Virus record (IMG/VR): IMGVR_UViG_2851955134_000001
DNA length: 51,277 nt
From: a virus
Taxonomy: Duplodnaviria; Heunggongvirae; Uroviricota; Caudoviricetes
Direction: 5' to 3' (one strand)
In this document: positions 36,985 through 41,295 of the stretch, one piece after another
How positions within the stretch are numbered: the first letter of the stretch is position 1
Layout: each line of letters starts with the position of its first letter
Notes under the pieces: generated by a model
Seen by the model: only the letters and a program-made list of their open reading frames with translations
Database searches by the model: none
What the model was told of the DNA's origin: nothing
Position numbers and translations under genes: made by a program

Positions 36985-37650
36985 TCACTCCTTCTCTTCT
37001 TTACCGTAGTGGAGTTGGCCAATTTTTATAAGAGGGCGTCCCTGAGATTTGCGGTGTAGATTGGTATCGCGCAGAGAATACACACAGCCACAATATTCCT
37101 GCTGATAGAATTTTTCGCGCTTGCTGATTTCAATCATACGGGACGAGCCGCCCTGCTTGCGCCAGTTATAATCCCAGTACACCATACCCGGATAATGCGC
37201 AACAGCTCGCCGCCCACACTCGTTAACCTGCTGCATATTTTTCCAGCGTGAAATGCCCAGTGAACTGCTGATCACACTGAAACCATTTTCAGCAGCGTAT
37301 AACGCTGTCCGCTCAAAACGCATGTCAAAACACATGGTACAACGGATCCCCCTCTCAGGCTCCCATTCCATTCCTTTGGCACGTTCAAACCAGTTGTCGG
37401 TGTCGTAATCAGCATCGATAAACGGCACGCCGTGTTGTTCAGCAAAGCGAATATTTTCATCCTTACGAATTAAATACTCTTTCTGAGGATGAATGTTCGG
37501 GTTGTAGAAAAAGATGGTGTAGTCGATTCCCGAGGCCTGAAGCGCCTCCATCACTTCACCGGAACATGGAGCACAGCAAGAGTGCAGTAGTAGTTTGTTT
37601 GCCCCGTTCGGGAGCTCCAATTTAGGCCGTTTGAAATCAGCAATAGTCAT
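36985..37650 (-). CDS. QueH-like (DUF208) putative epoxyqueuosine reductase
   Basis: [11 protein letters not shown] motif near the N-terminus plus downstream RCTMC and EYCGCVYS cysteine motifs, recalled as DUF208/QueH signatures. Confidence 0.6.
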
Positions 37651-38266: not shown

Positions 38267-39037
38267 TCACTTTTCCGGTGCAACGTGGCGGGAAGAATCG
38301 ACAATCTGTCGGACAATATCCCGGTGCTTGTTCAGTTCCCGCAGCGCGGCGCAGAGTCGCTCCCACTTCCGGACATGATTTTTCGCCCGACGCAGTTCGC
38401 GGTTTGCCATATGCAGCGATGGTAAAACCAGGTCATCCGCTCGCGTTTCAGTAAACGATGGCAACGATTGCACAATATCAGCCACAGTTTCTGTTTTAAT
38501 ATCTTCCTGTGTTGCAGCTTCCTGTACTGGTAACGCAACACCTGCTGGCTGAGGAAAGGCTTTACCATCAGTTTCCGCTACCGATGCAGACTCCGGCCCT
38601 GCCGGTAAGTTGTCGTCCGGCAGGAAGTAACGAAATTTACCGTTCCGATTAACGCGTGCCAGCCGCCCCGTTGCGGTTACTACCGCCAGTGTGGAAGCAA
38701 CCTTGCGAGTGCTGACACCGAACTTACCCGCCAGTTCCTCACACGTTTTAGCCCCCTCCTGACTGATAAACTCAATCATCATGTCTGCGGTAACTTTTTG
38801 TTCGACCTCCCCGGTCAGCATATCCTGTGCTTCAGATTTTACTGGTCGCTCTTCGGTTACCCGGGATTCACCTTCGCCAGCCAGAAACCAGGTGTGACCA
38901 GTTTTATCAACGACGCCATTTCTTTTGAGTTCCCACAGCTCGTTCAGCACTTCTTCACGACTGATATCAAGTCGCGTAGCCAGTTCTACCGATGTGGCTT
39001 TTCCCATCGCTTTCAGTGCGTCAAAAACAGTCTCCAT
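38267..39037 (-). CDS. hypothetical phage protein with N-terminal winged-helix-like domain
   Basis: ATG at 39037 with GGGAGG RBS; 256 aa. Confidence 0.45.
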   Translation of the reverse strand: METVFDALKAMGKATSVELATRLDISREEVLNELWELKRNGVVDKTGHTWFLAGEGESRVTEERPVKSEAQDMLTGEVEQKVTADMMIEFISQEGAKTCEELAGKFGVSTRKVASTLAVVTATGRLARVNRNGKFRYFLPDDNLPAGPESASVAETDGKAFPQPAGVALPVQEAATQEDIKTETVADIVQSLPSFTETRADDLVLPSLHMANRELRRAKNHVRKWERLCAALRELNKHRDIVRQIVDSSRHVAPEK

Positions 39038-39069: not shown

Positions 39070-39735
39070 TCAGACAAAACCAGCCGCTTTCCGGCGTTCA
39101 TATTCCTGTTTCAGCAACTCAATTGGCGTTGGTCCCGCAGGACGTTTGGGTGCTGCCAGTTGTCGCCGGACAGGCGGAACACTCAGGCCGTTGCTAACAT
39201 GCTTTGCCCATTTCGTCAGCTGCCGTTCTGCAAGCCGTTTTAACTCCCCTTCGGTCATCTGGCGTTCAATCCCCTTTGAACGCATCTCGAGGCATATGTG
39301 ATACAGCACAGGCTGAGACCACGGGTATTTATCGCTTCCGTCGTATCGCCAGGACTCATTGCGCCAGCGTCGGTACTCCTCCATCACAGCCCCCACCGTC
39401 AGACCGAATGGATTGGCCCCGCTTTCCGGAATCAGTGCCACAAACTCAGCCAGGTCAGGAGGCCATGTTTCACCCGCCCGGCAGCGGTCCATGCACTGGC
39501 GGCAGACCTGCCGGATTTGCTGCTCAGTCATCGCGCCAATCTGTGCAATCCAGAGCTTCGAAGGTGCGGCCCCGTTCTTCCGGGTCCAGCGGTCCGAATA
39601 AACCTCCCCCATGAGTTCCCACAGCTTCCAGGCTGTTTCCGTCGCTGATAAATCCGTTTTCACGTTCCCACTGCTCACGTGCTGCCCGAATTTCCTGAAC
39701 TGCCCGTGATGCGGTGCCACCTGGTGCTGCTGCAT
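39070..39735 (-). CDS. replication protein P-like (helicase loader)
   Basis: C-terminal half resembles recalled lambda gpP (…YPWSQPVLYHICLEM…); ATG at 39735 with AAGGGGG RBS; overlaps the upstream gene by ~210 nt. Confidence 0.65.
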   Translation of the reverse strand: MQQHQVAPHHGQFRKFGQHVSSGNVKTDLSATETAWKLWELMGEVYSDRWTRKNGAAPSKLWIAQIGAMTEQQIRQVCRQCMDRCRAGETWPPDLAEFVALIPESGANPFGLTVGAVMEEYRRWRNESWRYDGSDKYPWSQPVLYHICLEMRSKGIERQMTEGELKRLAERQLTKWAKHVSNGLSVPPVRRQLAAPKRPAGPTPIELLKQEYERRKAAGFV

Positions 39736-40534
39736 GGTTCACCCCCTTGCTGACTGGTTTAACCTGCGCCCTGACGTGATTTACGTGACGGGCGAATTTC
39801 TGCTCCCACTGAACCTGTGTGAACACTTTCCCCTCCGCCATCCAGTAATCCCGGAAGGCGGCAAGTTCAGCAGGTGTAAATTCCGGTTCCGGCAAAGCCG
39901 CTCCCCACAACGCAGCCCGTCGTCGAAAATCCAGCGACGGATGCCAGCCATCGGCCATCGGAAATTTCCCGATGGGTTCACTCAGGCCATCCGGAAATTC
40001 AGGTTCCGCCACCTGCAACGGCGTACCGTTCGGTTCACTGGTCGGAGCACTCTCGCGCACGCGCGCGTTATGTGTGGGGTTTAATTCTTTATCTGTATCT
40101 TTATTAGTTGCCTTTGTGTTTGCGTTATGTTCAAACACCACACCAACATTTGTTTGAACACCTGTTAAATCTCTCTCTTGTTTTGTTTGAACATCTGCTT
40201 CCTTTCTGCTTCTTCTGGCCTGAACAGATGCTTTTCCGGCGGCTGATTTTTTGGTTAATTTTTCCCTGACTGATGCCAGATCTTCCTCAATCCGAAGATG
40301 CACCCATTCATCGCCGTTATCGTGAAAAAACTCCCGCAAGGATGGCTCCACATCAGCCCATCGCTCATTAGTCAGACGGGCAATTTTTGCCAGCCTGTTT
40401 TTAGGTATTGGCTTTCCTGTTTGCCAGTAATTGAACATCAGCAACAAATATGCACCGTGCTCCTCTGCTGATAAATGCATGGTGTCAGCCAGGTAATCAG
40501 CGATGTACAGTTGCATGTATGGTAATGCGGCCAT
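39524..40534 (-). CDS. replication initiation protein (DUF1376 / YdaU-like, O analogue)
   Basis: N-terminus MAALPYMQLYIADYLADTMHLSAEEHGAYLLL typical of DUF1376 phage replication proteins. Confidence 0.65.
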   Translation of the reverse strand: MAALPYMQLYIADYLADTMHLSAEEHGAYLLLMFNYWQTGKPIPKNRLAKIARLTNERWADVEPSLREFFHDNGDEWVHLRIEEDLASVREKLTKKSAAGKASVQARRSRKEADVQTKQERDLTGVQTNVGVVFEHNANTKATNKDTDKELNPTHNARVRESAPTSEPNGTPLQVAEPEFPDGLSEPIGKFPMADGWHPSLDFRRRAALWGAALPEPEFTPAELAAFRDYWMAEGKVFTQVQWEQKFARHVNHVRAQVKPVSKGVNHAAAPGGTASRAVQEIRAAREQWERENGFISDGNSLEAVGTHGGGLFGPLDPEERGRTFEALDCTDWRDD

Positions 40535-40604: not shown

Positions 40605-41030
40605 TCAGTGCATCACCGCAGCATTACCCGCCGGGCCACCACGATTCATCTGATTGAAACCGGCGATTGCCACTGCGATAAAATCATCCGCGTCTCTCAC
40701 CAGCCGTTCTCGTGTCTCCAGCAGCTCCCTGAAATAGGCTGAGCTGTGGCTACGCATTCTGGCCACCAGCAAAGGCGGCATTGCCTTTTCGATCGCTGGT
40801 AGTAACGCCTGAATTTTTTCAACCGCATCAGGGGTGTCTTTCTCCACCCAGCGGAAAATTTTCTGGGTATTACGGGCCAGGGCTTCCGGATGGCTGTCGT
40901 CGTACAGCTCAGGAAACGTCATGCCCAGCTCGAAATAAACCCTGGTTATCTCGGCTGCCGGAACTTTTTCACCATCCGGACGCGACCAGGCATTCATCGC
41001 CATGCGGATGTGTTCATGCTTGATTTTCAT
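40605..41030 (-). CDS. YdaT-like protein (cII-position regulator of Rac-type phages)
   Basis: Starts MKIKHEHI... like recalled Rac YdaT; follows the cro-like gene. Confidence 0.6.
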   Translation of the reverse strand: MKIKHEHIRMAMNAWSRPDGEKVPAAEITRVYFELGMTFPELYDDSHPEALARNTQKIFRWVEKDTPDAVEKIQALLPAIEKAMPPLLVARMRSHSSAYFRELLETRERLVRDADDFIAVAIAGFNQMNRGGPAGNAAVMH

Positions 41031-41295
41031 GAATCAAGCTCCTAGTAAGTGGTTGTGTTAACGTTTTGGTATCTTCCAGCTCGGGCCAAATATTCATCCA
41101 ATCAAAAGGCCTTAGTTGCTGACGTGTAACTTCACCATTACTGGCTCGCTCAATAAGGACACATAACGATGCCCCTAACATTTGACCTTTACTCAATGCC
41201 TTTCTTAGATAACCGATGCTAGTACCACACTCACATGCAAACATACGCTGTTCATCTGACGAAAGAGAATTGAGAAATATTCTTAATTCTTCCAT
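41014..41295 (-). CDS. Cro-like HTH regulator (YdaS family)
   Basis: Divergent from the repressor gene; AAGGAG RBS; HTH-like region. Confidence 0.6.
   Translation of the reverse strand: MEELRIFLNSLSSDEQRMFACECGTSIGYLRKALSKGQMLGASLCVLIERASNGEVTRQQLRPFDWMNIWPELEDTKTLTQPLTRSLIHENQA

What the first reader, a model, noticed from the sequence alone, without database searches (positions are those of the whole stretch)
39524..39735. Replication genes overlap by ~210 nt in different frames
The P-like gene has a strong RBS and ATG at 39735, yet the upstream DUF1376 (O-analogue) ORF continues to 39524. Either the overlap is genuine, or the upstream gene has a frameshift or sequencing error near its 3' end.
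Basis: seen in the sequence. Interest (0 to 1): 0.35.

Follow-up and report, generated by a model that had tools for sequence, protein, structure and literature searches.

The report
Conserved two-frame overlap of replication genes
In this E. coli prophage the last 70 codons of the replication initiator gene and the first 70 codons of the helicase-loader (lambda P-like) gene are read from the same 212 bases in two frames; relatives across the Enterobacterales keep the arrangement, so it is not an error, although RefSeq hides it by shortening the loader gene.

Summary
On the minus strand the initiator ORF (DUF1376 + DnaT-like domain, 336 aa, 40534..39524) and the lambda-P-like ORF (221 aa, 39735..39070) share 212 nt in different frames.

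The overlap is genuine and conserved, not a frameshift or sequencing error.
- In 30 intact related loci, forming 15 lineages below 70% identity (Escherichia to Serratia, Erwinia, Yersinia), the overlap is 149-227 nt (median 215).
- Both frames stay open, whereas the third sense frame averages 4 stops in the same stretch.
- The ATG at 39735 and a GGAGG-like Shine-Dalgarno about 7 nt upstream are kept in 30/30 loci.
- The downstream starts are not kept: M43 is CTG in two genera, and M69, the RefSeq start, is L or C in distant relatives.
- Both frames carry a selection signal. Synonymous change in the P frame is suppressed over codons 2-34 (p = 3e-7). Lys53 is AAG in 14/15 lineages, which preserves the initiator's Glu-Glu motif (p = 5e-6).
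- AlphaFold2 and Foldseek show the 221-aa protein matching full-length lambda P, with the fold beginning at residue 29.

The 70-residue initiator tail travels with this P gene on at least five different initiator bodies. I infer, without a test, that it recruits the loader. This is a new example of a known kind of overlap and a useful annotation correction.

The parts
39524..40534 (-). Replication initiator (O-analogue) CDS, 336 aa: DUF1376 N-terminal domain, linker, DnaT-like ssDNA-binding domain, 79-residue C-terminal tail
   Evidence: ORF. Pfam DUF1376 at 5-87 and DnaT at 191-257. RefSeq annotates the same CDS in a 100% identical genome.
40274..40522 (-). DUF1376 domain of the initiator (residues 5-87)
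   Evidence: Pfam PF07120, E = 6e-26, 91 bits against a cut-off of 30.1.
39764..39964 (-). DnaT-like DNA-binding domain of the initiator (residues 191-257)
   Evidence: Pfam PF17948, 62.9 bits against a cut-off of 25. AF2 pLDDT is about 90. Similarity to locus L038, which carries a different tail and a different P, ends at 39769, at the end of this domain.
39070..39735 (-). Lambda-P-like helicase loader CDS, full length 221 aa (proposed true extent)
   Evidence: ORF. Pfam Phage_lambda_P. The profile aligns W62 here with W70 of lambda P. The AF2 model matches full-length lambda P chain 9oa1_Z over 219 columns with probability 1.0. Homologues of 212-223 aa down to 50% identity cover the whole query.
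39524..39735 (-). Dual-coding overlap, 212 nt: initiator residues 267-336 plus stop, and P residues 1-71, with P in the +1 frame
   Evidence: Conserved at 149-227 nt in 30 loci. Both frames are open and the other four are not.
39741..39748 (-). Shine-Dalgarno AAGGGGGT of the P-like gene, inside the initiator coding sequence
   Evidence: Read. The equivalent position is GGAGGT, GGAGG or GAGGT about 7 nt before the ATG in most of the 30 loci. 24 of 30 hold an exact match of 4 or more bases to AGGAGGT, and the rest are G-rich with one mismatch.
39733..39735 (-). ATG start codon (M1) of the P-like gene
   Evidence: An ATG is present at the equivalent position in 30/30 intact loci. The initiator-frame codon across it is always NAT (CAT 16, AAT 12, TAT 1, GAT 1) while its amino acid varies, and the next codon always starts with G. 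A P-phase stop usually lies 1-12 codons upstream.
39659..39706 (-). Conserved helix of the initiator tail (residues 277-292, RAVQEIRAAREQWERE), co-encoded with disordered, variable P residues 11-26
   Evidence: AF2 helix 93-108 of the modelled segment, pLDDT about 58. Tail consensus S.A.Q.I.RAARE.W in 15 lineages. Variability peaks at the initiator's third codon position, and P-frame synonymous change is suppressed. P residues 1-26 have pLDDT below 50.
39571..39580 (-). Doubly constrained site: initiator E319-E320-R321 and P K53-N54-G55
   Evidence: KNG is invariant in P. EE is conserved at 81-87% of pairs. K53 is AAG in 14/15 lineages against 35% AAG elsewhere in the same genes, binomial p = 4.8e-6. 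The third base of the variable P codon 52 is G in 13/15.
39607..39609 (-). ATG of M43, the alternative internal start that annotations of about 180 aa in other genera use
   Evidence: Homologues of 177-181 aa named 'replication protein P' start here. The codon is CTG in L023 and L025, no well-spaced Shine-Dalgarno precedes it, and it lies inside predicted helix 29-46.
39529..39531 (-). ATG of M69, the start that RefSeq and Rac-SA53 use (153-aa P; ATGACTGA, 8-nt overlap with the initiator stop)
   Evidence: Annotations. The codon is not conserved (TTG, CTG, CTC or TGT in L020, L026, L028, L031, L034, L036). It would remove helices 29-46, 48-54 and 60-67.
39524..39526 (-). TGA stop of the initiator
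   Evidence: The stop is at the same aligned position in 17 of 30 loci, this window included.

Best explanation
The 212-nt overlap is a real dual-coding segment conserved across the Enterobacterales. The initiator is translated through to the TGA at 39524. The lambda-P-like helicase loader starts independently at the ATG at 39735, from its own Shine-Dalgarno inside the initiator gene, and is 221 aa long.

The two frames divide the constraint between them.
- The first half of the overlap encodes a conserved amphipathic helix of the initiator tail over the disordered, variable N-terminal 'lasso' of P (the equivalent of lambda P domain I).
- The second half encodes the first three helices of the folded P domain II over a disordered acidic end of the initiator tail, which keeps only a few motifs (GGNLFEPLD-EER, D-x-D-D/E at the end).

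Because the tail lies inside the P gene, tail and P are inherited as one cassette and can be joined to different initiator bodies. My inference, not tested here, is that the tail is the loader-recruiting element of the initiator. That would match the C-terminal part of lambda O, which binds P, and the overlap would then keep matching partners linked in mosaic phage genomes.

Shown: the overlap, its conservation, selection on both frames, the start signals and the fold. Inferred: the binding role of the tail.
For: 1. Conservation. 34 species-level loci were fetched. 30 have an intact initiator/P gene pair, with overlaps of 149-227 nt, median 215. 15 lineages are below 70% identity, with near-saturated synonymous divergence of 0.62.

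2. Open frames. The initiator phase has 0/889 and 4/1080 stops inside the overlap against 5.4% downstream. The P phase has 0 stops in all 30 loci, the third sense frame averages 4, and the antisense frames 1.7-2.1.

3. Start site. A Shine-Dalgarno and ATG are kept in 30/30 loci. The initiator codon across the ATG is always NAT although its amino acid varies.

4. Selection on the initiator frame.
- Over P codons 2-34, variability peaks at P position 2, which is initiator position 3.
- P-frame synonymous difference there is 0.34 against 0.57 in the non-overlapping part (Mann-Whitney p = 2.7e-7).
- Off-frame identity exceeds the expectation from the non-overlapping part (p = 1.4e-8 for codons 2-34, p = 0.016 for codons 35-70).
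- The AAG bias at K53 gives p = 4.8e-6.

5. Selection on the P frame.
- Residues 36-68 are strongly conserved down to 50% identity; W50, K53, N54, G55, P58 and W62 are nearly invariant.
- P-frame periodicity holds over codons 35-70.
- G23 is conserved with a free third position.

6. Structure. AF2 gives residues 1-26 as disordered and helices at 29-46, 48-54 and 60-67 with pLDDT about 85. Foldseek places full-length lambda P first, with 219 aligned columns. Lambda P has a disordered domain I (1-29) and a compact domain II (30-119) (PMC12661323). The initiator tail is one weak helix followed by disorder.

7. Cassette behaviour. The same tail and P follow DUF1376+DnaT, HTH_36+DnaT, unassigned+DnaT, DUF1376 without DnaT, HTH_36/DnaD_N and unassigned bodies. 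L038 has a near-identical DnaT domain with a different tail and a lambda-like P.
Against: - There is no direct evidence of translation for either frame in the overlap (no ribosome profiling or peptide data).
- P residues 2-34 are poorly conserved (pairwise identity 0.25). Their translation rests on the conserved start signals, the open frame, G23 and the predicted helix from residue 29.
- Over codons 35-70 the general synonymous-site test is not significant (0.54 against 0.57, p = 0.26). Initiator-frame selection there is shown only at a few sites and by the absence of stops.
- Three loci end the initiator earlier (L021, L029, L036), so the distal tail is dispensable in some lineages.
- The loci share ancestry, so the joint probabilities overstate independence.
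- The co-occurrence of tail and P is forced by the overlap itself and is therefore weak evidence for binding. L038 is a single example.
- The AF2 confidence of the tail helix is low, about 58.
Confidence: 0.8

Rival explanations
1. The loader starts at M43 (ATG 39609, about 179 aa), as annotated in many Citrobacter, Klebsiella, Salmonella and Pectobacterium genomes. The true overlap would then be only 86 nt, and the upstream open frame would not be translated.
For: The ATG is present in 28 of 30 loci. Many NCBI 'replication protein P' entries are 177-181 aa. P residues 2-34 are weakly conserved. An extra internal initiation here cannot be excluded.
Against: The codon is CTG in L023 and L025. 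The neighbouring GGGAGG is 0-3 nt from the ATG, or absent. The start would cut predicted helix 29-46, and the conserved A-W-x-L-W lies upstream of it. It also leaves unexplained the Shine-Dalgarno, ATG and NAT codon conserved in 30/30 loci, and the stop-free 31-42 codons that begin right after a P-phase stop.
Confidence: 0.1
2. The loader starts at M69 (ATG 39531, 153 aa) and is translationally coupled through ATGACTGA, as in RefSeq and phage Rac-SA53. The overlap would be a trivial 8 nt.
For: PGAP and GenBank annotations use it. ATGA-type stop/start overlaps are common between coupled genes (general knowledge).
Against: The codon is not conserved in distant loci. Residues 36-68 are the best-conserved N-terminal part of the family. 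Pfam and lambda P homology begin upstream of it, at residue 60 and at W62 = W70. Three confident helices of domain II would be lost.
Confidence: 0.03
3. The upstream gene carries a frameshift or sequencing error near its 3' end, so its extension into P is an artefact.
For: Nothing specific. A few database proteins do show frameshifts inside the overlap (P0069, P0172, P0178), and two loci are pseudogenes (L033, L037).
Against: A complete E. coli genome holds a 100% identical copy of the 921 bases compared (window 39070-39990). The same frame, tail sequence and stop position recur in 30 loci from many genera. The initiator frame is under purifying selection in the overlap.
Confidence: 0.01
4. 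The overlap serves programmed +1 ribosomal frameshifting, which would make an initiator-loader fusion protein.
For: P is in the +1 frame of the initiator. Single database proteins fuse the two (P0069, DUF1376 + P, 333 aa; P0178).
Against: P has its own conserved Shine-Dalgarno and ATG. The RNA around the start is not unusually stable (z = 0.30) and nothing matches Rfam. I saw no obvious slippery site when reading the window sequence, but I ran no search for one across the loci. The fusion proteins come from single assemblies.
Confidence: 0.03

Closest known systems
Phage lambda O-P replication module
   Same: The gene order is the same, an origin-binding initiator followed by a helicase loader. 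The loader here belongs to the lambda P family by Pfam and by fold. In lambda the initiator's C-terminal part binds P (own knowledge), and disordered P domain I is proposed to contact the O-ori complex (PMC12661323).
   Different: The lambda genes abut with only a few shared bases (own knowledge, not checked here). Here about 70 codons are shared in two frames. The initiator is not an O homologue: it has DUF1376 and a DnaT-like domain. The P protein has roughly 16-20% identity to lambda P in the fold alignment.
DnaT-like initiator with a lambda-like P in other E. coli prophages (locus L038, NZ_CP082776)
   Same: The DnaT-like domain is nearly identical, and a P-family loader follows directly.
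   Different: The tail after the DnaT domain is different and shorter (about 35 aa), the P is a different 258-aa protein, and the overlap is only 29 nt. Tail and P are therefore exchanged together, and the long overlap is specific to the P subfamily of this window.
Classical overprinted or embedded phage genes (lambda Rz/Rz1; phiX174 A/B/K and D/E)
   Same: These are out-of-frame overlaps on the same strand, tens of codons long, with both products functional. One frame is typically disordered where the other is structured (own knowledge).
   Different: Those cases involve lysis or small-genome phage genes. Here the overlap joins the 3' end of one replication gene to the 5' end of its partner, and the pair moves as a recombination cassette among different initiators.
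Rac prophage ydaU-ydaV-ydaW region (phage Rac-SA53, KU052037)
   Same: The DNA is 93.6% identical over the region and the gene order is the same: ydaT, ydaU (initiator), 'ydaV' (P-like), ydaW (DUF1627).
   Different: That record annotates the P-like gene as 153 aa from M69. Other Rac-type records have a DnaC-like protein (annotated ydaV or 'DNA replication protein') in this position (H14 and H22).

Membership tests
Phage_lambda_P helicase loader family (PF06992) | Sequence match to the family profile above the curated threshold | tested here: met
   56.8 bits against a cut-off of 26, residues 60-188 matching profile positions 32-161. A profile of the homologues hits lambda P chains 8v9t_V and 8v9s_A.
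Phage_lambda_P helicase loader family (PF06992) | Four-part lambda P architecture: disordered N-terminal lasso, compact domains II and III, C-terminal lasso | tested here: met
   The AF2 model has residues 1-26 disordered, helical domains from 29 to 181 and a terminal helix at 204-217. Foldseek's best hit is full-length lambda P (9oa1_Z), 219 columns, probability 1.0, TM 0.52. The domain definitions come from PMC12661323.
Phage_lambda_P helicase loader family (PF06992) | Binds and loads host DnaB | not testable with these tools
   This needs biochemistry or genetics.
DUF1376 / DnaT-like phage replication initiators ('replisome organizer') | DUF1376 N-terminal domain and DnaT DNA-binding domain | tested here: met
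   PF07120 at 91 bits and PF17948 at 62.9 bits. AF2 gives the DnaT domain pLDDT of about 90.
DUF1376 / DnaT-like phage replication initiators ('replisome organizer') | Binds an origin located in or near its own gene | not tested
   Only a lead: three TGTTCAAACA palindromes at 40127-40194.
Functional out-of-frame overlapping (dual-coding) gene pair | Both reading frames are kept open across divergent homologues while the other frames are not | tested here: met
Functional out-of-frame overlapping (dual-coding) gene pair | Purifying selection is detectable in both frames within the overlap | tested here: met
   Initiator frame: synonymous suppression with p = 2.7e-7, excess off-frame identity, and the K53 AAG bias with p = 4.8e-6. 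P frame: invariant W50, K53, N54, G55, P58 and W62, and P-frame periodicity over codons 35-70. The signal is weak for P codons 2-34, and for the initiator frame over P codons 35-70 outside a few motifs.
Functional out-of-frame overlapping (dual-coding) gene pair | The downstream gene has its own conserved initiation signal inside the upstream gene | tested here: met
   Shine-Dalgarno and ATG are kept in 30/30 loci, and the initiator codon across the ATG is always NAT.
Functional out-of-frame overlapping (dual-coding) gene pair | Both products, including their overlapping parts, are detected | not testable with these tools
   No proteomic or ribosome-profiling data are available here.
Programmed ribosomal frameshift site | A conserved slippery sequence with a stimulatory element, and no independent start for the downstream frame | tested here: not met
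   An independent Shine-Dalgarno and ATG are conserved. The fold z-score is 0.30 and there is no Rfam match. A slippery site was looked for only by eye in the window sequence, not searched for across the loci.

The most novel reading that the evidence does not exclude
The overlap may be a linkage device. The initiator tail would be the element that recruits this particular loader, possibly by contacting the N-terminal lasso or domain II of P, the very parts encoded by the same nucleotides. The two sides of an interface would then be written in two frames of one DNA segment. Recombination, which shuffles initiator bodies freely in these mosaic prophages, could not separate them.
Probability: 0.25. 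Interest if true: 0.65.

Novelty: new member of a known kind. Interest (0 to 1): 0.42.

Why it matters
- Annotation. This replication module occurs in 1321 of 5426 complete E. coli genomes, up to 6 places per genome, O157:H7 included, and in many other Enterobacterales. Databases give the loader four different lengths: 221, about 180, 153 and 140 aa. RefSeq's choice removes the N-terminal lasso and more than half of domain II. In lambda P those parts make the crown-like loader ensemble and are proposed to contact the initiator (PMC12661323). Fixing the start matters for any structural or functional work on these proteins.
- Biology. This is a clean, deeply conserved example in a tailed phage of about 70 codons read in two frames, with order in one frame paired with disorder in the other.
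- Evolution. It suggests how mosaic phages keep an initiator's loader-docking tail matched to its loader while swapping origin-binding domains.

Tried and rejected
- Literature. Searches for a description of this overlap or of DUF1376/DnaT-P modules found nothing specific. The lambda P structure paper was useful only for domain definitions.
- General synonymous-constraint test over P codons 35-70. It was not significant (p = 0.26), so I used site-specific tests instead.
- Search with the initiator C-terminal half. It returned mostly partial proteins with limited diversity. They served only as an alignment for structure prediction, and the resulting tail model has low confidence.
- RNA explanations. 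Folding around the P start (z = 0.30) and an Rfam scan gave nothing.
- Antisense ORFs across the overlap (39204-39648, plus strand, 116-136 aa). Rejected as genes because they are interrupted in most distant loci.
- P-only loci (L027, L035) as natural controls. They look like prophage remnants next to host genes, so I did not use them for selection tests.
- Complex prediction.

Full report
**What is in the sequence**

On the minus strand, one search lists an ORF at 40534..39524 (336 aa) and an ORF at 39735..39070 (221 aa). They share 39524-39735, 212 nt, and the second ORF is in the +1 frame of the first.
- Pfam places DUF1376 (residues 5-87) and a DnaT DNA-binding domain (191-257) in the first protein. 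It places Phage_lambda_P (residues 60-188, profile positions 32-161) in the second.
- The ATG at 39735 is preceded by AAGGGGGT (39748-39741) with a 5-nt spacer.
- The neighbours are ydaT-like (40605-41030), DUF1627/ydaW-like (38267-39037) and repressor genes.
- The region is 93.6% identical to phage Rac-SA53. The 921 bases 39070-39990 are 100% identical to a prophage of E. coli TUM1886.

**How the databases treat it**

Annotations disagree.
- RefSeq (PGAP) and Rac-SA53 start the P gene at M69 (39531, ATGACTGA, 8-nt overlap), giving 153 aa.
- Stx/PPompW phage records give 140 aa.
- Many genomes of other genera start at the M43 equivalent, giving 177-181 aa.
- Many GenBank entries carry the 221-223-aa form.

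**Comparative evidence**

An alignment of homologues shows that residues 36-68 (AWKLWELMGEVYSDRWTRKNGAAPSKLWIAQIG) are among the best-conserved parts of the family down to 50% identity. W50, K53, N54, G55, P58 and W62 are nearly invariant, while residues 1-33 are variable and carry indels. M69 therefore cannot be the start.

I fetched 34 species-level loci from GTDB genomes. Thirty have an intact initiator/P gene pair.
- In all 30 the upstream initiator ORF runs 149-227 nt (median 215) into the P ORF. In 17 of them, this window included, it stops at exactly the same aligned position.
- The initiator tail is conserved in its own frame: S-x-A-x-Q-x-I-x-R-A-A-R-E-x-W, then G-x-x-G-G-N-L-F-E-P-L-D-x-E-E-R/W, ending D-D/E.

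**More than chance**

| Frame or phase | Stops |
|---|---|
| Initiator phase, inside the overlap | 0/889 and 4/1080 codons |
| Initiator phase, downstream of the overlap | 238/4435 codons, 5.4% |
| P phase, inside the overlap | 0 in all 30 loci |
| Third sense frame, same 216 nt | mean 4 |
| Antisense frames, same 216 nt | mean 1.7-2.1 |

- The four stops counted inside the overlap are actual initiator termination codons, in loci where that gene ends early.
- The P phase has a 3.7% stop density in the initiator body. It usually has a stop 1-12 codons before the ATG, and then none.
- With 15 lineages below 70% identity, the chance of such open frames is negligible, even allowing for shared ancestry.

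**Where P starts**

- All 30 loci have an ATG at the M1-equivalent position. In most it lies about 7 nt after GGAGGT, GGAGG or GAGGT.
- The initiator-frame codon across this ATG encodes His, Asn, Tyr or Asp but is always NAT, never NAC, and the next codon always begins with G. Selection therefore acts on the ATG itself.
- M43 is CTG in two genera and lacks a usable Shine-Dalgarno. M69 is Leu or Cys in several lineages.
- AlphaFold2 on the 221-aa protein gives residues 1-26 disordered and helices at 29-46, 48-54, 60-67 and 71-86, with pLDDT about 85.
- Foldseek's best hit is full-length lambda P (9oa1_Z, 219 columns, probability 1.0). The profile alignment equates W62 here with W70 of lambda P.
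- Lambda P consists of a disordered N-terminal lasso (1-29), compact domain II (30-119), domain III (120-192) and a C-terminal lasso (PMC12661323).

The 221-aa form reproduces this architecture. The 179-aa and 153-aa forms would cut into or remove domain II.

**Selection in both frames**

Over P codons 2-34:
- Nucleotide variability peaks at P position 2, which is the initiator's third position.
- P-frame synonymous difference falls to 0.34 against 0.57 in the non-overlapping part (p = 2.7e-7).
- Initiator-frame identity exceeds what P conservation predicts (p = 1.4e-8).
- In this stretch the initiator frame is the main constraint.

Over P codons 35-70:
- The periodicity is that of P, and the general synonymous test is not significant (p = 0.26).
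- Specific sites nevertheless show initiator-frame selection. Lys53 is AAG in 14/15 lineages against 35% AAG elsewhere in these genes (p = 4.8e-6). The third base of the variable codon 52 is G in 13/15. Both preserve Glu-Glu in the initiator.

AlphaFold2 of the initiator C-terminal part gives a confident DnaT domain, a weak helix at residues 277-292 and disorder from 296 to 336. The two frames therefore complement each other: the tail helix lies over the disordered P lasso, and the disordered acidic tail lies over the P helices.

**Cassette behaviour**

The same tail and P follow at least five kinds of initiator body:
- DUF1376 + DnaT
- HTH_36 + DnaT
- an unassigned N-terminus + DnaT
- DUF1376 without DnaT
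- HTH_36/DnaD_N, and bodies with no Pfam match

Similarity between different bodies starts near the P Shine-Dalgarno. Conversely, L038 has a near-identical DnaT domain joined at 39769 to a different tail and a lambda-like P, with only a 29-nt overlap.

**Mechanism**

Shown:
- Two genes share about 70 codons.
- Both frames are conserved and under selection.
- P has its own start signals inside the initiator gene.
- The P N-terminus encoded in the overlap is part of the lambda-P fold.

Inferred: the initiator tail recruits this loader, as the C-terminal part of lambda O binds P (own knowledge). The lambda P paper proposes that disordered P domain I contacts the O-ori complex. If so, the overlap keeps the matching tail and loader linked during modular exchange. 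I could not test binding.

**Rivals**

- A start at M43, or an extra isoform from it, remains possible at low probability.
- A start at M69, a frameshift or sequencing error, and programmed frameshifting are not supported. The comparative data argue against the first two. For frameshifting there is no stable RNA structure and no Rfam hit, and P has an independent start.

**Novelty**

I found no paper describing this overlap. It is a new, well-supported example of a known phenomenon, out-of-frame overlapping genes in phages. It also corrects a very common prophage annotation: the module occurs in 1321 of 5426 complete E. coli genomes.

Noticed in passing
window 40127-40194: Three copies of the palindromic decamer TGTTCAAACA/TGTTTGAACA lie inside the linker-coding part of the initiator gene, next to an A+T-rich stretch. 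They could be origin iterons, by analogy with ori-lambda inside gene O.
   Followed up: partly
window 39529-39531 and equivalents in NZ_CP128970 and NZ_CP017438: RefSeq/PGAP consistently annotates the P-like gene as 153 aa from M69 in E. coli, and as about 180 aa from M43 in other genera. GenBank entries of 221-223 aa also exist. This is a systematic start-site inconsistency for a very common prophage gene.
   Followed up: yes
database proteins P0069, P0172, P0178: Single-assembly proteins switch from the initiator frame to the P frame inside the overlap (for example DUF1376 + lambda_P, 333 aa). They are probably indel errors or pseudogenes, but natural fusions are not excluded.
   Followed up: no
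L027 2485-3115 and L035 2458-3040: Intact P-like genes without any upstream initiator lie next to host-type genes that are not annotated here. The L027 neighbour looks ttcA-like and the L035 neighbour like a PTS permease, judged from the sequences only. They are likely prophage remnants that keep an open P gene.
   Followed up: no
L033 2437-3144 and L037 2203-2848: In Leclercia adecarboxylata and a Symbiopectobacterium the module is frameshifted or truncated within or near the overlap, so these are pseudogenes.
   Followed up: partly
window 36985-37650 (minus strand): A QueH-type epoxyqueuosine reductase ORF lies directly downstream of the prophage early genes DUF1627 and DUF977. Whether it is prophage cargo or the host flank was not resolved.
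   Followed up: no
window 39204-39648 (plus strand): Long antisense ORFs of 116-136 aa cross the overlap and persist in close relatives. They are broken by stops in most distant loci, so they are by-products of the doubly constrained sequence.
   Followed up: yes
window 41014-41030: The ydaT-like ORF (40605-41030) overlaps the upstream small Cro/DicC-like ORF (41014-41295) by 17 nt. This is an ordinary short overlap and was not examined further.
   Followed up: no
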